63,707 bases of DNA from positions 1 to 63,707 of IMG/VR virus record IMGVR_UViG_3300018719_000005. One strand, written 5' to 3'. Below the pieces are notes generated by a model that was given only the letters and a program-made list of their open reading frames with translations, was not told where the DNA came from and searched no databases. The DNA is from a virus. Shown here one piece after another: positions 1-63,707 of this stretch. The position numbers and the translations under genes were made by a program. Numbering within the stretch: the stretch's first letter is position 1; the number at the start of each line of letters is the position of its first letter.

Positions 1-115
1 TATTATCTACACGGACAAGGGTTCAGATAATACCCTTGAAATTTCTATTAATAAGGAAGCTTCACTGAACGATACTTTTCCTGAGGATGACACGCCAGGG
101 GGAAGATTGCGGAGG
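1..115. repeat. Terminal direct repeat, left copy (identical to 63593-63707)
   Basis: Read directly: both copies run tattatctacacggacaagg ... gggaagattgcggagg. The repeat edges coincide exactly with the window edges. Confidence 0.95.
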
Positions 116-505
116 GCACGATTAAGTAAACATATGCTGCTTGTAGATCTTGCTAATTTCTCTGGACTCAGTTCGAGGACCCTTCAATTAGCTGAACAGA
201 ATAAAACGAAGCTAAGCCTTCCTAATTTGAGAATCTTATCAGGGATTCTTCAAGCCCCAATTGCTTACTTGGGCTGCTTTGAAACTCTACCTGAAGATAC
301 ATTAGGAAAACGTATTAAGAAGGCACGGTTGTACTCAGGACTAACAAAGCGTGAACTTGCTAATCATTTTGGTTTAAGTGATCGAATGATTCAGGGTTGG
401 GAAAAGGATCAATACAAACCATCTGACAAGCATTCCTCACAAATATTTATTCTCTTGGGAATACTGGTACATAATGTGATTGAAGCGAAAAGTACCGAGC
501 ATTAA
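2..505 (+). CDS. Tandem XRE-type helix-turn-helix segment. The frame is open from base 2 and, via the terminal overlap, continuous with the serine recombinase ORF. Alternative: a stand-alone 132-aa HTH protein from TTG 107.
   Basis: Frame 2 has no stop from base 2 to TAA 503-505. Two HTH_3-like units: LRRARLSKHMLLVDLANFSGLSSRTLQLAEQNK and IKKARLYSGLTKRELANHFGLSDRMIQGWEKDQ. Confidence 0.6.
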   Translation: MIYTDKGSDNTLEISINKEASLNDTFPEDDTPGGRLRRARLSKHMLLVDLANFSGLSSRTLQLAEQNKTKLSLPNLRILSGILQAPIAYLGCFETLPEDTLGKRIKKARLYSGLTKRELANHFGLSDRMIQGWEKDQYKPSDKHSSQIFILLGILVHNVIEAKSTEH

Positions 506-532: not shown

Positions 533-562
533 GAGCTCTTCTCATTGATTAGAGGAGAGCTC
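533..562. terminator. Hairpin between convergent genes (bidirectional terminator candidate)
   Basis: gagctcttctc / gaggagagctc forms an 11-bp stem (one G-U) with an 8-nt loop. A T-rich tract follows on the minus strand. Confidence 0.5.
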
Positions 563-601: not shown

Positions 602-997
602 CTATTTATCGAAAAAGTTTGCTTCATACAAGTAATCATATTCGACCAAAACATCTTCACTACGTGTAAAACTGGACTTAAATTCATCATGTTCTATCAA
701 ATAATCGATAACTTCTTCAATTCTTTCCCTACTAACATTATCTATTAATATCATATCACTCGCCCAAAAGTAGGCCCCGTACATACATTCTCCTGTTTTT
801 TCGTTTTTTTGTCGTAATGTCTCAATATTTTTGTATGTAACAAAGGTTGCCAACCATCTTGATCTATTGGAAAAAGTTACAGCAACATCAACATTATTAT
901 CAAAGTAATCGTACTCTTTATTGTCCGATTCCTCAACATTAATCCATATATTCTTTTTCATATTTCTCAGATTCATTAATATTAACTCCATTTCCAT
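602..997 (-). CDS. Putative cognate immunity protein of the upstream polymorphic toxin
   Basis: An in-frame ATG at 997 lies 7 nt after the toxin stop. The product is a small acidic cytoplasmic protein. The assignment is positional only. Confidence 0.5.
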   Translation of the reverse strand: MEMELILMNLRNMKKNIWINVEESDNKEYDYFDNNVDVAVTFSNRSRWLATFVTYKNIETLRQKNEKTGECMYGAYFWASDMILIDNVSRERIEEVIDYLIEHDEFKSSFTRSEDVLVEYDYLYEANFFDK

Positions 998-1004
998 TTT
1001 AACC

Positions 1005-2708
1005 TTATTTTTTGGAATATAAGACTTTAAGACGATCAATAACTTTTTGTTGATTATGTTTATCAGATTTCGCCAAGATTTCAACTGTGTCACCTTGGGT
1101 TCTCAAGTATACTCTCGCACCATTTTTTGCTCTTAATTCAAATACCCCGTCAAATAAATAATTGTTTTCGATTCCAGGATTACTATTACCCTGTAAATAC
1201 TGATGAATCAAATTATCTGCAGCTTTTTGTATTTTATCATCCTTCATTGCCTTTTCTGTTTCTTTTGTCAAAACTGAATCCTCACCAATTCGGAATTTAA
1301 CAAAGTATTTCCCAGCTTTTACCGAACCTGATAAGACTTTATCGACAAAACCTATTATCTCACTGCCACCATGTTTCTTTAAGATATCATAGACTTGTTT
1401 ACCAGCACCGATCAATTTTCCTACAGGTAAAATACTAATTGCCGCAAATGCTCTATCTACGGTACTAGCATCCTTATCGAATAGTGTTTTAATGTCATCA
1501 AAGACTAGTTCATCAAGACCAGCTTCCAAAACCTCAAACAGAAACTCTCCTGCCTTAGTCTCCCATGACTTAGCCATAGGTGTTTTTATGTTAATTTCTC
1601 CTGTTTTCCTATTCCAATCAATCGACGTTCTTGAAACCGCTTCTAAGTCTTCTATCTCAACCATATCTCTGCCATTAATATTTTTAACACTAACATTTAC
1701 TTCTTTTATGTTATTGCGTTCGTCTTTAATCTTCATTTTTTCATTTTTTGTATCGAATTCGATTTTCCATGGTCCTTTTATTGCCGTAATTAATGAAGTC
1801 CTGCTATCTTGGGAAACAATTTTATATCCCAACCCTTCAATTATATCGGGAATGTTCGCATATGCTTTATTGTTTCTTACTGCGTAATTTCTACCGGTTG
1901 ACCCAATTTCATCATTATTTACTTCAACATGTATACTACTTTCAATATTGATACCCGAACTCTTATTTGTAATTTGCACTGCGTATAAATGGTTTATGGC
2001 CATATCTGAAATATAAGTAGAACCATCACTTCTAATTTCAGCAGTCATATTTATGCTTCTTTTATTTCTAGGATCGCCATCTTTTGAATAGTATCCGGTT
2101 GTGGTAACTTCATTTTTACGGATTCTAAAACTCAAAGTTGCCCCATCATCTGATGTAACCGTAATATCCTGGTAATCCCAAACCTTATACTTTGGATCAC
2201 CCACATAATGTGTAGATACATCGATGTCTGCTCCTAATTCGGAAAATACATCCCTAAGTCCTACCATGTATTCACCATTTTTTACATATCCAATTTTCCC
2301 TTTACTGTCACCGTCTACAGTAACCGCAATGTTCCCAGCTGCACTAGCCTGAACGCCCGAAATTGAAGTAGTCTGGGAAGCGCTGGTTGCTGCTAATCGA
2401 GCTTTATCACTTATCGCTACGCTATCCTTTTCTTTGGGACTTTGCGCGCTGCTTATTTGATTGGACTGCTCAAGTGTCTTACTTTTTTTAATACTTGTAG
2501 GCAGTGAGCTACTTGTTAATAGACGTCTACTTTCATCACTAATTACAATTTTGTCCTTTATTGAAGTAGGTACGTTTGAAATTACTAGTGTTCCTTTATT
2601 TGATGATTTCAAATAAGTTGAAGATACAGTCCGAAGAGCATTTCCTTGGTTCATACTTATTGAATTTTGATTACTGCGGCTTAGACTATTACTACCATTG
2701 AACAGCAT
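1005..2708 (-). CDS. Polymorphic-toxin-like protein: Ser/Thr-rich N-terminus, copper-amine-oxidase-N-type stalk repeats, RelE/ParE(Gp49/HigB)-like C-terminal toxin domain
   Basis: Strong SD (GGGAGGA) upstream of the ATG. Stalk motif: VTVDGDSKGKIGYVKNGEYMVGLRDVFSELGADIDV. C-terminus: FELRAKNGARVYLRTQGDTVEILAKSDKHNQQKVIDRL. Confidence 0.6.
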   Translation of the reverse strand: MLFNGSNSLSRSNQNSISMNQGNALRTVSSTYLKSSNKGTLVISNVPTSIKDKIVISDESRRLLTSSSLPTSIKKSKTLEQSNQISSAQSPKEKDSVAISDKARLAATSASQTTSISGVQASAAGNIAVTVDGDSKGKIGYVKNGEYMVGLRDVFSELGADIDVSTHYVGDPKYKVWDYQDITVTSDDGATLSFRIRKNEVTTTGYYSKDGDPRNKRSINMTAEIRSDGSTYISDMAINHLYAVQITNKSSGINIESSIHVEVNNDEIGSTGRNYAVRNNKAYANIPDIIEGLGYKIVSQDSRTSLITAIKGPWKIEFDTKNEKMKIKDERNNIKEVNVSVKNINGRDMVEIEDLEAVSRTSIDWNRKTGEINIKTPMAKSWETKAGEFLFEVLEAGLDELVFDDIKTLFDKDASTVDRAFAAISILPVGKLIGAGKQVYDILKKHGGSEIIGFVDKVLSGSVKAGKYFVKFRIGEDSVLTKETEKAMKDDKIQKAADNLIHQYLQGNSNPGIENNYLFDGVFELRAKNGARVYLRTQGDTVEILAKSDKHNQQKVIDRLKVLYSKK

Positions 2709-6214: not shown

Positions 6215-6802
6215 ATGGCGTTCATGAAAACTGTACAAATATCACTATTATTTTTACTTTTGGTTAGCTGTTCAACAAGAGAAGATGCGTTACTCGAATT
6301 AAAAAAACGTTCAATTGATTTTAACTCTGATCAATTTATATATGCTGTGGAAAAAAGTGATATTGACACAATTAAATTATTTTTAGATGCAGGATTTAAC
6401 CCAAATGAAAAATCTGGAAAGGATATTCCTGCCTTAATAGCAGCGATTGAAAGTGGGAACAAGAGAATTGTAGATTTGCTCATAGAGGAAGGATCCGACG
6501 TAAATCTGCCAAGTAATAGTGGATATACACCTTTAATGAGCGCAGCGGCAAATAATCATACAGATATTGTGAAGACTTTATTATCAGCAGGAGCAAACGT
6601 TAATTCAAAAGACAATTTAGGATATACCAGTATCATGTTCGCTGTGAGGAATGGAAATAAGGAACTGGTCAAAGTATTACTTGACGCTGGAGCTGATCCA
6701 AATGTAAATGTTGATCCAGTTCGTGATGACATGATTAAATTCACAAGGAATATGTATCCCGAAATTGGTGAAATGTTAAAAGAAGCAGGTGCTAATGACT
6801 AG
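6215..6802 (+). CDS. Ankyrin-repeat lipoprotein
   Basis: Lipobox LLLVSC. At least 3 ankyrin repeats (GYTPLMSAAANNHTDIVKTLLSAGANVNSKDNLGYTSIMFAVRNGNKELVKVLLDAGADPN). SD AAGGAGAGG upstream. Confidence 0.85.
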   Translation: MAFMKTVQISLLFLLLVSCSTREDALLELKKRSIDFNSDQFIYAVEKSDIDTIKLFLDAGFNPNEKSGKDIPALIAAIESGNKRIVDLLIEEGSDVNLPSNSGYTPLMSAAANNHTDIVKTLLSAGANVNSKDNLGYTSIMFAVRNGNKELVKVLLDAGADPNVNVDPVRDDMIKFTRNMYPEIGEMLKEAGAND

Positions 6803-51006: not shown

Positions 51007-51246
51007 TTAAGCTGATAATGTATGAGATTCTTGTACTTCAAAACCAAATAAAAAGCTTACTTCTCTATTCAAGATTTCAGCTATTTTTATCGCAGTCTGT
51101 AACGGTGGTATAGCATGTCCATTTTCCCAATTCGCAACTGCTTGCCTTCCTCTATATCCAAGTAAATAAGCTAGTTGCTCCTGAGTATAGCCATTTTCTT
51201 TTCGAGCCTGCTGAAGTCTATTGTTTTTTCTCACTTTCCCCACCAC
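51007..51246 (-). CDS. cro: Cro-like XRE-family HTH regulator
   Basis: Motif: GYTQEQLAYLLGYRGRQAVANWENGHAIP. It is divergent from the cI-like gene. Confidence 0.8.
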   Translation of the reverse strand: MVGKVRKNNRLQQARKENGYTQEQLAYLLGYRGRQAVANWENGHAIPPLQTAIKIAEILNREVSFLFGFEVQESHTLSA

Positions 51247-51256
51247 CTTTGTTTAA

Positions 51257-51380
51257 GATTCTTGTACTTATGAGATCATTATAAGTACAAGGAAATCATA
51301 CGTCAATACTATTGTATGACTTTCTTGTACTCAATTTAAACATTAAACTCTGTAATGTACAATTAAATTGTACTTATGAG
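51257..51380. promoter_or_regulatory. Lysogeny-switch operator/promoter region with reiterated TTGTAC half-sites
   Basis: Palindrome cttgtacttat-N9-ataagtacaag at 51261-51291. Exact 13-mer TTGTACTTATGAG at 51262-51274 and 51368-51380. cttgtact at 51324-51331. gtacaatt-a-aattgtac at 51357-51373. Confidence 0.6.
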
Positions 51381-51392
51381 GAGGTTTGTCTA

Positions 51393-51743
51393 ATGCTTTC
51401 ACAGCGCCTTCGATCTGCCAGGAAATATAGAGGGTTAACTCAAGAAGAATTAGCGATTAAAGTAAAAACTACAAAAGCTACAATAAGTAATTATGAGAAT
51501 GGGCATAGCTCTCCTCACAATGAAATGCTTACTTTCTTGGCTGACGTATTAAATGTTTCTACGGATTATCTACTTGGACGTACTGATGACCCCAACACTT
51601 CAGACAATAAGGACATACATCGAACCGAATTCGAAAACCTGTTCTTCAATGAGTTGGATAAGTTGAGCGAGGAAGATAAGAAGAAGGCATTGGAACATGT
51701 AAAGTATTTGAGGTTCCTTGCGGAGCAGGAAAATAAGAAATAA
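51393..51743 (+). CDS. CI-like XRE-family repressor
   Basis: SD GAGGAGG lies 9 nt before ATG 51393. Motif: LTQEELAIKVKTTKATISNYENGHSSP. C-terminal extension present. Confidence 0.85.
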   Translation: MLSQRLRSARKYRGLTQEELAIKVKTTKATISNYENGHSSPHNEMLTFLADVLNVSTDYLLGRTDDPNTSDNKDIHRTEFENLFFNELDKLSEEDKKKALEHVKYLRFLAEQENKK

Positions 51744-52825: not shown

Positions 52826-54364
52826 TCATTTTTCTAACATGTCTTTTACTTCCACTAGGAAATCATAGAGATCAGTATCTTTAATATCCTCTAACTTCAT
52901 CTCTTTAGAGATTCTTCTATTGCATTTTTTGGGATTTAATTTGATCTGTTCCTCTAATTTTACGTTTTGATCAATAGCAGATATTGAATCACTTATTTGA
53001 GATCCAAACACAGTTTTTAGTGCCTCTAAAGAAAAATAGTTTTCTATGGAGTATCGTTCTAATTGTTTAACGGGTATCCCCAGTTCATTACATCTTCTTT
53101 TAAACCTCTCTCTAACATTTCTACTACCAGGATCTAAATCCAACAATGCGATTATCTTATAGTTATCTTTGAAGACAGATAAATCAAGTTGGTCCATTAT
53201 GTCACCACCAAGTGGCCAAATCTTTATATTGTATTTTTCCAACAATCCCATTTTAACAAGAAATTCTTCAATCACTGGCTTATCTGTTGGTCCTTCACAT
53301 AAAATTACAATGTCAGAAATTAAGTTATCAGCGATAGAAAATCCTAGATCATGTAAAATTGAACTTCTAGTTGTTGCATCCTTTACATTTACTTTGGTAT
53401 CAAAGCTAACATGGTAGACCCTATCAACCAAACTACTATCCAAAAATACGTTTGAGTGAGTAGATATTATGAATTGACTATCTGTTTCATTCTTTAAAAT
53501 TGCCAGTAACCTTCTTTGCATATCCGGGTGCAGATGTGTCTCAGCTTCATCAATAAGAACTAACGTAAATCCAACGTTTGCGAAATAAAGTATGATTAAT
53601 AAATCTTGCAAACCAAGTCCACATTCTTCTGCTGTTATCCATTTATTATTTAAATTAGTAAAACTCAGTTGAAGTTGATTATTCATATTTACCGTGATAT
53701 CGAAATCAAACCCTGAAGTAATGGTTCTAAAATGATCCTTAATTTTTGTGTATATAATATATTGGTTAGAGTCATTTGATTGATTTTTATAAAAAAAGAG
53801 TCTATTCAGTATGCCATTTCCATTTGCGCTGGTTTCCTCTAGAGGTATTATCTCCTTTGTTACTTCAATTTCTCTTTTGGATGGAATATAACAAATATTT
53901 GTTTGAGGATTATTATTTTCAAAATAAACACCAGAAAAGAAATTGACAATAAGTTGTAAACACTCTTTTACTTTTTCTTCAAGTGTTATTTTTTGATGTG
54001 AATCACTATACTGGGTTGAAATATATTCTGTTGCTCCAATATATATATAATGGGCCATTTCGTAGATTTCCGTTAAGAACCAACACTTTGTTTCAATATC
54101 GATGTAATATTCAAACAGCCTCTCTTGAATGTATCCTAATACCGGTCCTGCAATTAACGCATTATCCAAATAATTATTACAGGATTTATAGAATACTTTC
54201 TTTGGTATATCTACTCCTGATTTATAATGTTGTTTAAATATTTCCCTAAGAATAGTTGATTTTCCGCTATTATTGCGACCGCATAGTACATTTACCTTAC
54301 CTAGATTTTGAAATCGACATCCATCTGTAATATCATTCCCTATTAACTCTAAATTTATTAGCAT
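52826..54364 (-). CDS. OLD-family / PARIS-like nuclease: ABC-type ATPase (AAA_15/21-like) fused to a TOPRIM/DUF4435-like domain
   Basis: Walker A GRNNSGKST, Walker B LVLIDEAETHLHP, H-loop IISTHS. TOPRIM motifs: IVILCEGPTD, IALLDLDPGS, YSIENYF. Confidence 0.8.
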   Translation of the reverse strand: MLINLELIGNDITDGCRFQNLGKVNVLCGRNNSGKSTILREIFKQHYKSGVDIPKKVFYKSCNNYLDNALIAGPVLGYIQERLFEYYIDIETKCWFLTEIYEMAHYIYIGATEYISTQYSDSHQKITLEEKVKECLQLIVNFFSGVYFENNNPQTNICYIPSKREIEVTKEIIPLEETSANGNGILNRLFFYKNQSNDSNQYIIYTKIKDHFRTITSGFDFDITVNMNNQLQLSFTNLNNKWITAEECGLGLQDLLIILYFANVGFTLVLIDEAETHLHPDMQRRLLAILKNETDSQFIISTHSNVFLDSSLVDRVYHVSFDTKVNVKDATTRSSILHDLGFSIADNLISDIVILCEGPTDKPVIEEFLVKMGLLEKYNIKIWPLGGDIMDQLDLSVFKDNYKIIALLDLDPGSRNVRERFKRRCNELGIPVKQLERYSIENYFSLEALKTVFGSQISDSISAIDQNVKLEEQIKLNPKKCNRRISKEMKLEDIKDTDLYDFLVEVKDMLEK

Positions 54365-54391: not shown

Positions 54392-55600
54392 TTATCCGTT
54401 TCGGGTAATTCCAATATCTTTGATCTTTTTGATAATAATATCATTATATATTGTAGAGTCGTGTCCATTGTGAGCCCTTCTGTGACAGTTAGGACAGACA
54501 GCTGCAACCCAATCCGGATGATCAGGTCCTCCATCCGATAGCTTACGTAAATGATGCACTTCCAAAAATGGCTCCCCAGATTTATTGATAAAAGGAGCTG
54601 GTTTCCCGCATGCTTCACAAACACCATTTGCTCGTTTTAAAGCGTACTGTTTTACAGCTAGGCTTCTTTCTCGGTAAACGGCTTTCCGTTCTTTAACAGA
54701 AGTCCTTGCTGATTCTTGTAAACCTTCAATTGCCTTTCTGCGCAAGTCCTCTAGAGATAAAGAGCGAATATGTTCCATTGCCTCAAGGTTAAACGTCTCA
54801 GCCACAGCGTCTTCGCTTGGCATAAGTTCAAAAACGATCACTTTTCTCTCTCTACCTTTGCTGTCTTTATCTTTTATTTGATGACCAATGTAGCTCATTT
54901 GACCAACATAATAAACAATGCCGGATCCAGCTACACGATATTCAAACAAGTGAATGTCTTCTCCATTTTCATGGTGGTCCCTAATAGCTTTATTACCCTT
55001 GGTAAACTCCATATCCCCTTCCTGTCCTTCACCGGTATACAAGAAGATACCTTCATCAGACCAACCATCTTTGTACCCGTGATCCTCTCCCCGATCTCCA
55101 GTGAAGGCAAGAATGATTGGGAATTTAGCTGGCGTAGAAATACCACCTTGCTGCTGGCCACCTAGCATTGCGTGGAGATCTTTTCTCCGGACCTCCCTAC
55201 CTGGGACAAACAACTTTTCAATGTCGCCGAGTTCTATCTCAGTATCAGCAACTTCTGCTTCTGCTTCTGCTTCTGCTTCTGCTTCTGCTTCTGCTTCTGC
55301 CGGGAAAGTGTAATTGCATTCAATCAATCGTTGGCGCGCAATTTCCCTCTCTTCATCAGTAAATAAGTCTTTATAATGGGCATCAAGAATTAGAGCCTCC
55401 ATTGAAAGATCCAAGCGTCCCTCTTCCCACAATCTACTTAACCCTGATTGGTCCTTTCCCCTGAGTATGCTCTTGGCAACAATCACTCCGTTTTGTCTTG
55501 TGAGCATTTGAAAGAACCCCGTTGGGTTATAAGTTGTCTCTCGCTTGGTTCTTTGGCATGTATCAAGCAGAGCCTTATGAAACTGATGTTTTAGATCCAT
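54392..55600 (-). CDS. SRA(YDG)-HNH nuclease, type IV (modification-dependent) restriction-like, with N-terminal helical domain and (AE)8 linker
   Basis: SRA core: RRKDLHAMLGGQQQGGIS...ILAFTGDRGEDHGYKDGWSDEGIFLYTGEGQEGD. HNH motif: CEACG...LEVHHLRKLSDGG...CPNCHRRAH. Confidence 0.8.
   Translation of the reverse strand: MDLKHQFHKALLDTCQRTKRETTYNPTGFFQMLTRQNGVIVAKSILRGKDQSGLSRLWEEGRLDLSMEALILDAHYKDLFTDEEREIARQRLIECNYTFPAEAEAEAEAEAEAEAEVADTEIELGDIEKLFVPGREVRRKDLHAMLGGQQQGGISTPAKFPIILAFTGDRGEDHGYKDGWSDEGIFLYTGEGQEGDMEFTKGNKAIRDHHENGEDIHLFEYRVAGSGIVYYVGQMSYIGHQIKDKDSKGRERKVIVFELMPSEDAVAETFNLEAMEHIRSLSLEDLRRKAIEGLQESARTSVKERKAVYRERSLAVKQYALKRANGVCEACGKPAPFINKSGEPFLEVHHLRKLSDGGPDHPDWVAAVCPNCHRRAHNGHDSTIYNDIIIKKIKDIGITRNG
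55252..55299 (-). repeat. Perfect hexanucleotide tandem repeat (CTTCTG)8 = (GCAGAA)8 on the coding strand
   Basis: Counted directly. It encodes AEAEAEAEAEAEAEAE between the N-terminal and SRA domains. Confidence 0.95.
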
Positions 55601-58544: not shown

Positions 58545-59486
58545 TCACATCTTTTTTATATACAATTGCTCCGCCATGGATTCAATTTTTTGCCTTTGTA
58601 CCAATTTTTCAAACATTCGAGTAGGCAACCCAGAGAATCCATAATATGCTCCGGCCAGTTGTCCGTAAACTGCACCAGTTGTATCAGCATCATCCCCCAG
58701 ATTCACAGCAAGTAAGACTCCATCTTCAAAGCTATCAGTGTTATAAAATGCCCATAATGCTGCTTCAAGTGATTCAACTACGTACCCACTACCCTTTACT
58801 TGTTGAGCGTTCTTTTCTTTAAAGGAACCTCTCGCAATTTCTTCGATTTTAGGTGTTAAAGGCTCAGTCCTCCACGAATCATTAAGGGGAGAGAATAACT
58901 CTGAAAGTAATTCCTCTTTGGAACAACCATATAGTGCCCCTGTAATCAATCCACCAAAGTATCTGCATGCATCAACGGTTTCTTTACTTGGATGAGTTGT
59001 GACCGAGCTTCTACCACTCATTTCTATAGCTTTTAGTGGATCATTAGCATAAAACATTGGCACTGGTGCTAATCTCATGATGGATCCATTGCCTGCTGAC
59101 CAAGGATCGTAAGAGCCGCTAAATGGCTGTCCCGTTTTTTCAAAAAGAATTAGAGCCTCTCTTGTTGCATTGCCAATATCAAAGCAGTAGCCTTTACAGC
59201 TAAAGTATCCTTCTCTATACCATTTAAGGTAACGTGTCATTTGATCCTTGGCATCAAAACCATTACATTCAAGCAAACTTTCTGCTAGACACAATGCCAT
59301 AGAGGTATCATCTGTCCATTCACCAGGCTCCAGCTCGTGAACTCCACCACCTACAATGTCTGTAATTGGCTGAAAACTCCCTGGTTTATAAAACTCAAGA
59401 GTTGCTCCTAGTGCGTCACCGATTACTAATCCAAGCAGGCTACCTTTAAATCTATCAATTTGTTCCAAGGCTACCACTCCTAACAC
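58545..59486 (-). CDS. ADP-ribosylglycohydrolase (ARH/DraG family)
   Basis: Motifs: GSLLGLVIGDALGATLEF, EWTDDTSMALCLAESL, GDDADTTGAVYGQLAGAYYG. Confidence 0.9.
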   Translation of the reverse strand: MLGVVALEQIDRFKGSLLGLVIGDALGATLEFYKPGSFQPITDIVGGGVHELEPGEWTDDTSMALCLAESLLECNGFDAKDQMTRYLKWYREGYFSCKGYCFDIGNATREALILFEKTGQPFSGSYDPWSAGNGSIMRLAPVPMFYANDPLKAIEMSGRSSVTTHPSKETVDACRYFGGLITGALYGCSKEELLSELFSPLNDSWRTEPLTPKIEEIARGSFKEKNAQQVKGSGYVVESLEAALWAFYNTDSFEDGVLLAVNLGDDADTTGAVYGQLAGAYYGFSGLPTRMFEKLVQRQKIESMAEQLYIKKM

Positions 59487-59718: not shown

Positions 59719-60207
59719 ATGAAACTGTCCTACTCCCCATCCCCCCTTGAGTCCTGGGTGACTCACTTTTATAAGCAACTAGGAATTTACTCACCTGAGG
59801 AACTGGACGAACACCGAATTGCAAAGGCATTAGACATTTATCTTTTCTACAAAGAAGTTCCATCCATGGCTTATGAGCTAGGTCGATTTAAAAGCATTAC
59901 CGTAGACAAGCGACTTCCGATAAAGGTGCAGAGAGAGCATTTTTTTCATGAACTATGCCATATCCTCCGGCATGCAGGCCGACAGATCATGATGCCTGAA
60001 GCATTTCGGGAGTTACAGGAATGGGATGCGAGGAATTTTACCCGGTATGCCGCCTTACCGTTGCACCTGATAACAAAGTATGACTATAAGGAACCAGGGT
60101 TTGTGGACTTGCTATCTGAAGATTTTATGGTAACTCCTGAGTTGTGTGAGGACAGAATACTGAGGATAAAAAGTAAGCTTATAGAAAATCAATGCAAATC
60201 AAGATAA
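59719..60207 (+). CDS. immA: ImmA/IrrE-family metalloprotease (anti-repressor protease)
   Basis: HEXXH motif within FFHELCHILRH. Size and context are typical of ImmA. Confidence 0.85.
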   Translation: MKLSYSPSPLESWVTHFYKQLGIYSPEELDEHRIAKALDIYLFYKEVPSMAYELGRFKSITVDKRLPIKVQREHFFHELCHILRHAGRQIMMPEAFRELQEWDARNFTRYAALPLHLITKYDYKEPGFVDLLSEDFMVTPELCEDRILRIKSKLIENQCKSR

Positions 60208-61870: not shown

Positions 61871-61915
61871 CCCTTTCTTTCAACGATTGACACTACGTTT
61901 AGAAAGGGTATTTTT
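61871..61915 (+). terminator. Hairpin + T-run after the membrane-protein gene
   Basis: ccctttct (61871-78) pairs with agaaaggg (61901-08), followed by tattttta. Confidence 0.5.
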
Positions 61916-62012: not shown

Positions 62013-63707
62013 GTGTCAAGATTAGGAGTCTACGCTAGGGTAAGCTCAGATGATCAAGCAGAGCGTGGAACAATTGAGAATCAGTTAGAATTTGCAAGAA
62101 AGTATGCAGACCTCCATCAACTTGAAGTCGTCAAATGGTATAAGGACGATGGAGTCACCGGAACAATTCCTTTAGAAGGACGATCTGCCGGTAAAGAACT
62201 GCTCGAGGATGCTAAGAATGGCCTTATCGATCTACTTCTCATCTACCGACTTGACCGACTCGGACGTTCAGCCCGAATCATTTTAAACTCTGTCCATGAG
62301 TTAGAAGGATACGGCGTAAAGATTCGGTCCATGACTGAACCGTTTGACACCGGTGACCCTTCTGGCCGTTTCCTTCTGACCATCTTAGCCGGTGTTGCTG
62401 ACTTAGAGAGAGAAACCATCCTGGAGCGTCTTTGGTACGGGGCAAATCGTGCAGCTCGAACAGGGAAATGGCTGGGTGGTATCGTGCCGTATGGCTATCA
62501 GTTGAACGCAGAAGGGTTCTTGGAGGTAAATGAGGATCCTCTCCCCCACTTTGATATGAGTGAAGCAGCCGTTGTACGTATGATCTTTCATATGCTTGCA
62601 GCTCAAGGACAGTCTTGCATTAAGGTTGCAGACTACTTAAATGCGCTCGGAGTCCCAACCGCTTATACAAAGGACGATCGTAAAGTAACCCGCGGTAAAC
62701 GCCAGGAAAAAACATCGGGCATTTGGCGGCCGGCACGAATCCGGGCAATTATCACGAATACTACCTATAAAGGCATCCATCAATACGGTAAAAGAAGTGC
62801 AAAAAAGCGTGAACTCATTGAACGTGAGGTACCGGCGATTGTAGATGTAGAAACATGGGAAAAGGCGCAACGAGTCTTACGAGGTAATCAGATCGAGGCC
62901 ATGCGAAATGCCAAGAATCGCTACCTGTTACGCGGTCTAATCAAGTGTCAATGCTGTGGGTTAACTTATGTCGGTATCCATTATCACGGCAGCAAGCGGT
63001 CATTAAAAGGTTATTACGTTTGCACGGGAAAACAAGCGTATAAAGGACCAATGCAAGGTAAATGTACATCAAAGAACATTCCCCAAGATTGGATCGAGGA
63101 TTTGGTTTGGAATGATTGTGTAGCTTTCATCAATCAACCTGGGGAAGCATTGCAACAAATAGCTGCAACACTCGAGACAAAGAAATCGGAGAAACAAGAT
63201 TTTGAAGCAGAAGTCACGTTAATTCAAAAAGCAATCGATGATAAAGACATTGAGCGTCAGAGCATCCTAGATCTCTTCCGGAAAAACATCATCTCTTACA
63301 CAGATCTCGAAAAGCAGATCCAAAAGATTAACCAAGAGAAAGAGCTATTGGAAATTCGCTTGAAGGATCTCCGTAGCTATCTTAAGAATGATCAGGATTA
63401 CACAAACAAGATCAGCAATGCTTTTCAGCTCCTCAACACATTGAAAAACAAATTAGATGAGGACCCTTCTTTCGAAACTAGACGCGAGATTGTTAAATCA
63501 CTCGTACAAAGGGTTAATGTCGAAACAATCTATGATGAATACACGAAAAGACCCCGTGCTTCTGTTTCTGTTCAATACTCTCTGTCCAAGGATATTATCT
63601 ACACGGACAAGGGTTCAGATAATACCCTTGAAATTTCTATTAATAAGGAAGCTTCACTGAACGATACTTTTCCTGAGGATGACACGCCAGGGGGAAGATT
63701 GCGGAGG
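62013..63707 (+). CDS. int: Large serine recombinase (phage integrase). The ORF is still open at the window end.
   Basis: SD GAGGTGAGA before GTG 62013. Motifs: VYARVSSDDQ, YRLDRLGRS. Recombinase domain present. Zinc ribbon CQCCG..YYVCTG..GKC. Coiled coil present. 565 codons without a stop. Confidence 0.9.
   Translation, partial: MSRLGVYARVSSDDQAERGTIENQLEFARKYADLHQLEVVKWYKDDGVTGTIPLEGRSAGKELLEDAKNGLIDLLLIYRLDRLGRSARIILNSVHELEGYGVKIRSMTEPFDTGDPSGRFLLTILAGVADLERETILERLWYGANRAARTGKWLGGIVPYGYQLNAEGFLEVNEDPLPHFDMSEAAVVRMIFHMLAAQGQSCIKVADYLNALGVPTAYTKDDRKVTRGKRQEKTSGIWRPARIRAIITNTTYKGIHQYGKRSAKKRELIEREVPAIVDVETWEKAQRVLRGNQIEAMRNAKNRYLLRGLIKCQCCGLTYVGIHYHGSKRSLKGYYVCTGKQAYKGPMQGKCTSKNIPQDWIEDLVWNDCVAFINQPGEALQQIAATLETKKSEKQDFEAEVTLIQKAIDDKDIERQSILDLFRKNIISYTDLEKQIQKINQEKELLEIRLKDLRSYLKNDQDYTNKISNAFQLLNTLKNKLDEDPSFETRREIVKSLVQRVNVETIYDEYTKRPRASVSVQYSLSKDIIYTDKGSDNTLEISINKEASLNDTFPEDDTPGGRLRR
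63593..63707. repeat. Terminal direct repeat, right copy (identical to 1-115)
   Basis: Same 115-nt string as 1-115. It lies inside the open recombinase reading frame. Confidence 0.95.

What the first reader, a model, noticed from the sequence alone, without database searches (positions are those of the whole stretch)
62013..63707. Serine integrase ORF runs through the junction into two XRE helix-turn-helix domains (predicted 694-aa fusion)
From GTG 62013 the recombinase frame has no stop up to the last base of the window (565 codons). The last 115 nt are identical to bases 1-115. The same frame is open from base 2 to TAA 503-505, giving 1580 + 505 = 2085 nt, or 695 codons, on the circular map.

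A typical large-serine-recombinase end (zinc ribbon, coiled coil, ...RREIVKSLVQRVNVE...) is followed by an acidic linker and two XRE-type HTH units.

I do not know of integrases with a built-in tandem XRE module. Such a module could target or auto-regulate integration, act as an integrated directionality or repressor function, or tether the integrase to operator-like sites.
Basis: seen in the sequence. Interest (0 to 1): 0.65.

Follow-up and report, generated by a model that had tools for sequence, protein, structure and literature searches.

The report
Phage integrase gene split by integration
This circular phage genome encodes a serine integrase fused to two DNA-binding (XRE) domains, and the phage attachment site lies inside that gene, so inserting into the host comM gene cuts the DNA-binding half off and excision puts it back.

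Summary
The window ends share an exact 115-nt overlap, and on the 63,592-bp circle GTG 62013 to TAA 503-505 is one 694-aa ORF. It carries the Resolvase, Recombinase and Zn-ribbon domains, a disordered linker, and two XRE helix-turn-helix domains.

The fusion is real and recurrent. At least 28 homologues of 48-61% identity have it, including gp44 of cultured Paenibacillus phages Harrison and Paisley.

It is a 14-nt inverted repeat around a central CA at 63608-63609 (codons D532/K533), in the linker. The closest homologues (76-97% identity, 529-580 aa, no HTH) are the same gene after integration. They diverge at that point into antisense comM.

In 11 bacterial genome loci the HTH module abuts a comM fragment, never the recombinase. 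In Heliobacterium mobile the two halves lie about 57 kb apart. Excision in silico rebuilds a 686-aa Int-HTH ORF and an intact 506-aa ComM.

The XRE module is therefore part of the integrase only while the phage is unintegrated. What it does is not shown. I found no description of this arrangement. It is a new variant of known kinds (large serine integrases; attP-inside-gene switches).

The parts
62013..63707 (+). int-HTH ORF, codons 1-565. This is the large serine recombinase core plus the start of the linker and HTH1. The ORF continues at base 116 on the circle, because 63593-63707 duplicates 1-115.
   Evidence: Searches show the open frame. One search gives Resolvase 6-153, Recombinase 184-292 and Zn_ribbon 305-369. 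One search shows Ser11, in the motif RVS, invariant in 29 fused homologues. In one search the best PDB matches are cryo-EM large serine integrases (9dxd, 9y66, 9rah, 9iu2).
2..505 (+). The same ORF after the junction: codons 528-694 plus stop TAA 503-505. In AF2 residue numbering, HTH1 lies at about bases 95-274, HTH2 at about 302-403, and the C-terminal helix at about 425-499.
   Evidence: AF2 helices. Foldseek to Cro, c2 and SinR.
63584..63633 (.). Predicted attP, about 50 bp. Inverted-repeat arms are CAAGGATATTATCT (63587-63600) and AGATAATACCCTTG (63617-63630). The central dinucleotide CA is at 63608-63609 and straddles codons D532/K533. Bases 63593-63633 are repeated as window 1-41.
   Evidence: this is the best dyad centre, with 16 of 25 symmetric positions. 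pair I19: arms 93% complementary. Homology to the integrated relative L001 stops at 63618. Homology to the attL remnant in L003 starts at about 63602.
63602..63617 (.). 16-bp core shared by attP and the empty attB in comM (CACGGACAAGGGTTCA). Its antisense strand encodes the conserved ComM motif NPCPC.
   Evidence: One search aligns window attP, L003 attB (6668-6683), L001 attR and L003 attL. One search shows that the antisense strand reads LNPCPCR*.
63588..63674 (+). Coding region for the disordered linker (residues 526-554) between the last beta-hairpin of the recombinase and HTH1. It contains the crossover.
   Evidence: pLDDT is below 50 for residues 526-554, after strands 498-507 and 514-522; the segment is poorly conserved but open in frame in all 30 fused sequences.
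61887..61914 (+). Promoter-like site (TTGACA, 16-nt spacer, TATTTT) about 100 nt upstream of the int start. A Shine-Dalgarno-like GAGGTG precedes GTG 62013.
   Evidence: One search gives only a consensus match, and the count is not above the shuffle expectation.
533..562 (.). 11-bp stem-loop just after the stop codon, between the convergent int-HTH gene and ORF 602-1093 (minus strand). It is a possible bidirectional terminator.
   Evidence: minimum free energy -23.9 kcal/mol, z = -2.7, and 0 of 200 shuffles fold as well. The consensus scan did not call it, because there is no T run.

Best explanation
The window is the circular (unintegrated) genome of a temperate phage of a Brevibacillus-like host. 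Its integrase gene encodes a 694-aa protein. Residues 1 to about 525 are a complete large serine recombinase. Residues 526-554 are a disordered linker. Residues 559-693 are two XRE-type HTH domains plus a long helix.

The phage attachment site attP lies inside the DNA that encodes the linker.

Shown by sequence comparison:
- Recombination with attB severs the ORF at codons 532/533. attB is the NPCPC-coding stretch of the host comM/yifB gene.
- The prophage then encodes only the recombinase core plus a tail of about 3-35 host-coded residues. These are the 529-580-aa 'recombinase family proteins' found in chromosomes.
- The two HTH cassettes end up at the opposite prophage end, next to the other comM fragment.
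- comM is interrupted within its AAA+ domain.
- Excision restores both comM and the full int-HTH ORF, in frame.

Inferred:
- The XRE module is joined to the integrase only while the phage DNA is free. It therefore works as a state-dependent DNA-binding module.
- Its most likely role is binding phage DNA during the period before integration or after excision. That could mean auto-regulating the lysogeny operon or providing an accessory contact near attP.
- In the lysogen the module is erased from the protein. The orphan cassette there lacks a recognisable ribosome-binding site and start codon.

The confidence of 0.8 applies to the structural claim (attP inside the ORF, and a gene that is split and rejoined). 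The specific role of the HTH module is much less certain.
For: Observation and domains.

attP in the ORF:
- The DNA match to the integrated relative L001 (Int P0001, 97% identical, 553 aa, on an 892-kb contig) ends at window 63618. Beyond that point L001 continues into a truncated comM on the other strand (Mg_chelatase positions 1-161 of 207, no C-terminal domain).
- An inverted repeat is centred at 63608-9.
- An empty attB and the matching attL and attR sequences are available.

Genomes:
- In 17 loci from the GTDB genome scan, no close relative has the HTH module preceded by the recombinase.
- In 8 loci it abuts an antisense comM 3' part. In 3 loci it abuts a sense comM 5' part.

Both ends in one isolate: in H. 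mobile DSM 6151, Int P0116 and the HTH end lie about 57 kb apart on one contig and share the core GCACGGACA. Joining them gives a 686-aa Int-HTH ORF and a 506-aa ComM with all three Pfam domains.

Same phage in both states: L007 (Desulfotomaculum copahuensis genome, attL) and L026 (a 46-kb IMG/VR contig, attP) are 99.6% identical from the crossover onward and unrelated before it.

Episomal and virion records always show the fusion: Harrison and Paisley, L021, and 4 of the 4 IMG/VR contigs that have upstream sequence.

Selection for the fusion: the linker is poorly conserved, yet it is open and in frame in 30 sequences of 48-61% identity. The HTH residues are conserved (13 invariant columns).

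No own start: there is no in-frame start preceded by a Shine-Dalgarno sequence in the 45 codons before HTH1 in 12 of 13 loci.

Contig ends: the 115-nt overlap of the window contains the attP centre. The chance of that is about 115/63592 = 0.2%. Two IMG/VR contigs also start inside this ORF. This is as expected if assembly graphs branch at att sites when both states are present.
Against: - No expression, binding or recombination data exist, so the role of the HTH module is inference only.
- No repeated operator-like motif was found near attP or upstream of int.
- The phage has a separate CI/Cro-like pair at 51007-51743, so the module is not needed as the sole repressor.
- Gene callers do predict stand-alone 110-215-aa ORFs for the orphan HTH ends. 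At least one cluster (P0232) is an in-frame ComM'-HTH chimera. Expression in lysogens therefore cannot be excluded.
- The Shine-Dalgarno test is crude.
- The circular join of this particular window rests on the 115-nt overlap plus homology, not on reads.
Confidence: 0.8

Rival explanations
1. Integration-dependent release. The important form is the free tandem-XRE protein made in the lysogen from the orphan 3' cassette. It would use a host-derived start and, in the orientation where comM is co-directional, the comM promoter. It would act as a prophage repressor or regulator. The Int-tethered form in the free phage would be the inactive or differently targeted version. This would be an analogue of mycobacteriophage integration-dependent immunity.
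For: - The HTH frame stays open 29-107 codons into host DNA at every junction.
- Many database ORFs of 110-215 aa correspond to these ends.
- P0232 is an in-frame ComM(1-~355)-HTH chimera.
- In 3 loci the module lies directly downstream of, and co-directional with, the comM 5' part.
- Precedent: attP inside a repressor gene in BPs and Brujita (PMC8092301).
Against: - 12 of 13 loci have no Shine-Dalgarno plus start before HTH1.
- In the commoner orientation the cassette follows antisense comM, with no evident promoter.
- In L010-L012 the HTH frame is +1 relative to ComM.
- If the free form were the functional one, nothing would keep the frame joined to int across a variable linker in 30 divergent phages.
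- The phages carry ordinary CI-like repressors.
Confidence: 0.15
2. Directionality isoforms. The HTH module is an accessory DNA-binding 'arm' that makes the full-length protein proficient or specific for attP x attB. The truncated prophage isoform would be biased to, or permissive for, attL x attR excision. Integrase isoform switching, rather than a separate directionality factor alone, would then set the direction.
For: - The cut falls exactly between the last structured element of the recombinase and a long flexible linker. That linker could let the HTHs reach DNA flanking attP.
- All solved large serine integrases lack such a module.
- From established knowledge, C-terminal and coiled-coil changes alter directionality in phiC31 integrase (Rowley et al. 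2008; own knowledge, not checked here).
Against: - No repeated HTH-type sites flank attP in the window.
- Large serine integrases characterised so far need only the ~50-bp sites.
- No test of activity was possible.
Confidence: 0.2
3. Artefact. The fusion arises from wrongly circularising a linear contig or prophage. In reality the recombinase and an XRE regulator are separate genes, as the 529-580-aa chromosomal homologues would suggest.
For: - The ORF is seen only by joining the two window ends.
- The ten closest homologues lack the HTH part.
Against: - Uninterrupted orthologous ORFs lie in the interior of virion-derived and metagenomic phage genomes.
- The short homologues diverge exactly at attP into antisense comM.
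- The halves rejoin in frame in H. mobile.
Confidence: 0.03

Closest known systems
Large serine phage integrases (SPbeta SprA, A118/LI Int, phiC31, Bxb1)
   Same: - The same three-domain core, with an invariant Ser nucleophile.
- A long coiled coil inside the zinc-ribbon domain.
- A short, dyad-symmetric attP with a central dinucleotide.
- Integration into a host gene, which excision restores. Examples recalled from own knowledge, not checked here: SPbeta in spsM, A118 in comK, skin in sigK.
- The best structural matches are these enzymes.
   Different: - A ~160-aa C-terminal extension with two XRE HTH domains.
- attP inside the integrase ORF, so that the prophage and free-phage proteins differ.
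- None of the solved integrases (486-596 aa) has either feature.
Integration-dependent immunity of mycobacteriophages BPs/Brujita and M. abscessus prophages (Broussard et al. 2013; PMC8092301)
   Same: attP lies inside a gene for an HTH-type protein next to int. The viral and prophage products differ at the C terminus, and integration itself flips the switch.
   Different: - Those systems use tyrosine integrases and a separate repressor gene.
- Integration there removes a degradation tag and activates the repressor.
- Here the gene that is cut is the serine integrase itself, and the whole DNA-binding module is removed from it. The window protein ends ...EAKSTEH; whether that tail acts as a degradation tag was not tested.
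SSV-type archaeal integrases and Myxococcus phage Mx8 intP
   Same: attP lies inside the integrase gene, so integration partitions or alters int. Sources: PMC8371274, listed; Mx8 from own knowledge.
   Different: - Those are tyrosine recombinases.
- In SSV the catalytic protein itself is split.
- Here the catalytic core stays whole and only an appended regulatory-type module is detached.
Paenibacillus phage Harrison/Paisley gp44
   Same: An orthologue: 49% identity over 97% of the length, 695 aa, the same fusion, and an attP-like dyad in the same linker position.
   Different: - It is annotated only as 'serine recombinase', and the HTH module and internal attP are not mentioned.
- Its central dinucleotide is TG rather than CA. 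This predicts the opposite insertion orientation in comM.

Membership tests
Large serine recombinase (phage integrase type) | N-terminal resolvase-type catalytic domain with a conserved Ser nucleophile | tested here: met
   PF00239, residues 6-153, E = 3.6e-33. R9, V10, S11 and Q15 are invariant in 29 sequences.
Large serine recombinase (phage integrase type) | Recombinase domain plus a zinc-ribbon domain with an embedded coiled coil | tested here: met
   PF07508, residues 184-292, and PF13408, residues 305-369. AF2 predicts helices 377-423 and 429-480. Foldseek matches 9dxd, 9y66, 9rah, 9iu2 and 4kis.
Large serine recombinase (phage integrase type) | Short attP/attB sites with imperfect dyad symmetry around a central dinucleotide | tested here: met
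   14-nt arms, 93% complementary, with centre CA at 63608-9. A 16-bp core is shared with an empty attB. Junctions were reconstructed in H. mobile and in the L007/L026 pair. The cleavage position itself was not determined.
Large serine recombinase (phage integrase type) | Unidirectional recombination reversed by a directionality factor | not testable with these tools
   Needs an in vitro or in vivo assay. No directionality-factor candidate was sought.
XRE / Cro-C1 helix-turn-helix DNA-binding domain | Five-helix bundle with an HTH, matching PF01381 | tested here: met
   HTH_3, two stretches, E = 2.8e-10. AF2 pLDDT is 90.7. Rmsd is 0.8-1.4 A to 434 Cro, P22 c2 and SinR. DNA binding was not tested.
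Integration-dependent immunity system (Broussard 2013) | attP inside the repressor gene, with the prophage form a truncated, active repressor | tested here: not met
   attP lies upstream of the HTH module within the int ORF. The prophage keeps the recombinase, not the HTH.
Integration-dependent immunity system (Broussard 2013) | Tyrosine integrase | tested here: not met
   The enzyme is a serine recombinase.
SSV-type integrase | attP within int, so that integration partitions the gene | tested here: met
   However, the family is defined as archaeal tyrosine recombinases, and that is not met. The relation is an analogy only.
Prophage as reversible switch of a host gene (comK/sigK/spsM type) | Insertion interrupts a host ORF, and precise excision restores it | tested here: met
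   comM is truncated in L001 and L020. In-silico excision gives a 506-aa ComM with ChlI, Mg_chelatase and Mg_chelatase_C. Regulated excision without lysis was not testable.

The most novel reading that the evidence does not exclude
A serine integrase senses and records its own integration state. Because attP lies in its ORF, the enzyme edits its own gene. The free-phage isoform carries a tandem XRE module that controls transcription or the choice and direction of att sites. The prophage isoform lacks it. Lysogeny commitment or recombination directionality would then be set by isoform switching, not only by a separate repressor or directionality factor. As a corollary, this whole clade of 'recombinase family proteins' in genome databases consists of truncated chimeras with host-coded tails.
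Probability: 0.3. Interest if true: 0.85.

Novelty: new variant of a known kind. Interest (0 to 1): 0.7.

Why it matters
- It shows a way for a phage to make a protein domain conditional on the physical state of its genome, using a large serine integrase. This enzyme class was thought to need only two short sites and a separate directionality factor.
- It gives a directly testable handle on directionality and the lysogeny decision. The 694-aa and 1-532 isoforms can be compared on attP x attB and attL x attR. Harrison is a cultured phage and H. mobile DSM 6151 is a cultured lysogen.
- It matters for integrase mining for genome engineering. For this clade, sequences taken from integrated prophages are C-terminally truncated and end in antisense-comM residues. 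The native integration enzyme can only be read from excised or virion DNA, or rebuilt by joining the prophage ends.
- It identifies the conserved NPCPC-coding stretch of comM, a gene required for natural transformation, as a widely used serine-integrase target in Bacillota. It is used in both orientations.

Tried and rejected
- Megablast of 24 kb of structural genes against GenBank phages gave no match. The phage itself is unrelated at DNA level to sequenced phages.
A 5-sequence alignment worked.
- I searched for operator-like repeats around int and attP. Only the attP dyad stands out, and the other repeats look like chance.
- Promoter and terminator scans were not above the shuffle expectation.
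- I considered that the HTH module is the ImmR-like substrate of the ImmA/IrrE-type M78 protease encoded upstream (59719-60207). The top full-length Foldseek hits were DdrO, an IrrE substrate. I rejected this as a general explanation because relatives lack the protease next to int (L020, L021, Harrison) and the window has a normal CI-like XRE at 51312-51743.
- I considered independent translation of the HTH module from TTG 107 or ATG 134. Neither has a proper Shine-Dalgarno sequence, and ATG 134 would truncate helix 1.
- Literature searches for a serine integrase with XRE domains, attP inside a serine integrase gene, or comM as a serine-integrase target found nothing relevant. The library lacks most subscription journals, so absence is not proof.
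- The profile search of 1.84 billion representatives gave 177 hits at E <= 1e-30, but multi-repeat XRE giants contaminate the list. It gives no clean family count.
Full report
**Observation**

The window's last 115 nt equal its first 115 nt, and no other overlap length fits. With the duplicate removed, the circle is 63,592 bp. From GTG 62013 the frame is open to TAA 503-505, giving 694 residues.

Pfam finds Resolvase (6-153), Recombinase (184-292), Zn_ribbon_recom (305-369) and two HTH_3 stretches (best 632-680, E = 2.8e-10). NCBIfam places the N-terminal 500 residues nearest the CcrC, CcrB and XisF large serine recombinases, all far below their cut-offs.

AlphaFold2 of the last 154 residues, using a 22-sequence alignment, gives pLDDT 90.7. 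The model has two five-helix XRE domains followed by a 23-residue helix. Each domain superposes on 434 Cro, P22 c2 and SinR at about 1 A. Nothing in the PDB matches the tandem as a whole (TMq <= 0.40).

The full-length model shows the recombinase ending in a beta-hairpin (498-507 and 514-522). A segment of pLDDT below 50 follows (526-554), and then the HTH module. Its best PDB matches are cryo-EM large serine integrases of 486-596 aa, none of which has such a tail.

**Is the fusion real?**

Among the 120 best database hits, 28 proteins of 664-722 aa cover 96-99% of the query at 48-61% identity and carry the same HTH domains. They sit on contigs of 2.5-48 kb.

- Paenibacillus phages Harrison and Paisley were sequenced from virions. 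They encode a 695-aa orthologue (gp44) in the interior of the genome, downstream of an XRE gene and opposite a divergent XRE gene. Their authors describe it only as a serine recombinase that 'could be an integrase' (PMC5056774).
- P0016 lies in the interior of a 43.7-kb contig with a CI/Cro pair, replication genes and a lysis cassette.
- Four IMG/VR contigs also have the fused ORF internally.

In an alignment of 30 fused sequences the linker is poorly conserved but never interrupted. The HTH module has 13 invariant columns. The join across the window ends is therefore not an artefact.

**The twist: attP is inside the ORF**

The closest homologues (76-97% identity, Brevibacillus and relatives) are only 536-553 aa. 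They lack the HTH part and lie on contigs up to 4.3 Mb. The same holds for the other short hits, down to 504 aa.

P0001 (97% identical) sits on an 892-kb contig (L001) and converges with a truncated comM/yifB gene.

- DNA identity between the window and L001 (93% over the gene) stops at window 63618. The window continues ATAATACCC..., while L001 continues CGACCCCAC..., which is antisense comM.
- The truncated ComM has Mg_chelatase positions 1-161 of 207 and no C-terminal domain.
- The antisense strand of window 63597-63618 reads LNPCPCR*. This mimics the conserved ComM motif NPCPCG.
- Around this point lies the strongest dyad in the region. The arms are 63587-63600 and 63617-63630 (14 nt, 93% complementary). 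The centre is CA at 63608-63609, which falls in codons D532/K533.
- L003 comes from a host 91-97% identical to that of L001. It provides an intact comM with an empty attB, and also an attL remnant. Together the four sites define a 16-bp common core, CACGGACAAGGGTTCA.

**Genomes show the two halves apart**

I scanned one genome per GTDB species with the HTH module and obtained 17 loci. In none of the close relatives is the module preceded by the recombinase.

- In L003-L007, L009, L014 and L016 it directly follows the 3' part of comM on the opposite strand.
- In L010-L012 it follows the 5' part of comM on the same strand.
- In every case the phage-derived sequence begins at the family motif ...RTD / xRAENNLD.

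In Heliobacterium mobile DSM 6151 both ends are on one contig. Int P0116 (531 aa) lies next to the comM 5' fragment, and the HTH end lies next to the comM 3' fragment, about 57 kb away in the same orientation. The ends share GCACGGACA. Recombining them in silico yields a 686-aa in-frame Int-HTH ORF. It also yields a 506-aa ComM (..SSNPCPCGFFG..) with complete ChlI, Mg_chelatase and Mg_chelatase_C domains.

The junction peptides of Moorella thermoacetica (P0035 with L004) and Brevibacillus massiliensis (P0031 with L009) are compatible in frame in the same way.

One phage is seen in both states. L007 (Desulfotomaculum copahuensis genome) and L026 (a 46-kb viral contig) are 99.6% identical from the crossover onward and unrelated before it.

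**Orientation**

In the window, H. mobile and Moorella the dyad centre is CA on the int strand, and comM is antisense. In Harrison the centre is TG. In L010-L012 comM is co-directional. In both cases the dinucleotide falls in the first Cys codon of NPCPC.

I infer that the clade uses one attB in either orientation, set by the central dinucleotide as in other serine integrases. This is inference; the cleavage was not mapped.

**What the window is**

The window looks like a temperate tailed phage.

- A long run of minus-strand genes spans 9-50 kb, with ORFs of 1021 and 1171 aa.
- A CI/Cro-like XRE pair lies at 51312-51743 (+) and 51007-51246 (-).
- An ImmA/IrrE-type M78 protease lies at 59719-60207.
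- Then come two unknown ORFs and int-HTH.

It has no DNA-level relative among GenBank phages.

The 115-nt overlap that closes the contig contains the attP centre. The chance of that is about 0.2%. Two IMG/VR contigs also begin inside this ORF. This fits assembly graphs that branch at att sites when free and integrated copies coexist. It is an inference.

**Mechanism**

Shown: the ORF spans attP. Integration into comM cuts the ORF after residue 532. The prophage integrase carries a short host-coded tail. The HTH cassette is moved to the far prophage end. comM is disrupted. Excision reverses all of this.

Inferred: the XRE module acts only in the unintegrated state.

- Twelve of 13 loci have no in-frame start preceded by a Shine-Dalgarno sequence in the 45 codons before HTH1. 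The frame with int is maintained across a variable linker. Both points argue that the module is made as part of the integrase, not on its own.
- What it binds is unknown. I found no operator-like repeats.
- The two main alternatives are a free regulator made in lysogens and an accessory arm that sets directionality. The first is suggested by called ORFs of 110-215 aa and by a ComM'-HTH chimera, P0232. Neither is excluded, and both are listed as rivals with tests.

**Comparison with what is known**

The recombinase part meets the sequence and structural criteria of large serine integrases.

Placing attP inside a gene so that integration changes its product is known in two settings. One is mycobacteriophage integration-dependent immunity, which uses a tyrosine integrase and a separate repressor gene (PMC8092301). 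The other is SSV-type archaeal integrases, where the tyrosine int gene is split (PMC8371274).

I found no report of a serine integrase with attP in its own ORF, of a serine integrase fused to XRE domains, or of comM as a serine-integrase target. The searched library is incomplete.

I therefore rate this a new variant of known kinds. The structural finding has high confidence. The function of the detachable module is open.

Noticed in passing
window 63593-63707 = 1-115: The contig's closing overlap contains the attP centre, which starts 15 nt into the overlap. IMG/VR contigs L023 (47 kb) and L027 (41.6 kb) also begin inside the linker or HTH1 of the orthologous ORF. This suggests that assemblies break at att sites when free and integrated forms coexist.
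   Followed up: partly
L003 2053-3015 and 6193-7797: This contig is binned as 'Ca. Bathyarchaeia archaeon' but is 91-97% identical to the Brevibacillus-like host DNA of L001, so it is probably mis-binned. It holds an intact comM with an empty attB. About 4.1 kb away it also holds a duplicated comM 3' fragment joined to a frameshifted HTH remnant. This looks like a decayed attL relic whose origin is unclear.
   Followed up: partly
P0232 (513 aa): This is one ORF made of ComM residues 1 to ~355 (up to ..SSMNPCPC) joined in frame to the tandem HTH module. It is a host-phage chimeric protein predicted at a prophage junction of the co-directional orientation.
   Followed up: no
L008 2527-3150: The HTH module is the same as in L005, but it is preceded in frame by a different XRE HTH domain instead of comM, on a 3.1-kb contig. 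This could be a secondary attachment site or a recombinant.
   Followed up: no
window 52826-54364 (-) and 54392-55600 (-): An OLD-family ATPase with a TOPRIM domain (AAA_21, AAA_15, OLD-like_TOPRIM) lies next to a 402-aa HNH protein, beside the CI/Cro switch. The pair looks like a phage-borne defence cassette.
   Followed up: no
window 58545-59486 (-) and 59719-60207 (+): An ADP-ribosylglycohydrolase (phrog_6572, E = 1.3e-73) is transcribed divergently from an ImmA/IrrE-type M78 metalloprotease. No ImmR-type XRE gene lies directly upstream of the protease. In L001 the protease gene abuts the int start.
   Followed up: partly
one search hits P0121-P0139: The tandem-XRE profile hits very long proteins (up to 7503 aa) with 5-30 XRE-like repeats. 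Their nature and origin are unknown.
   Followed up: no
L001 1-3072 and 3184-9391: The integrated relative carries an AAA_15/AAA_21 ATPase next to a reverse transcriptase (RVT_1). It also carries several Imm53, DUF1871 and DUF5071 immunity-like genes upstream of int. This accessory cargo differs from that of the window.
   Followed up: no
window 533-562: A strong 11-bp stem-loop (-23.9 kcal/mol, z = -2.7) lies right after the int-HTH stop, between convergent genes. It has no T tract, so the terminator scan did not call it.
   Followed up: partly
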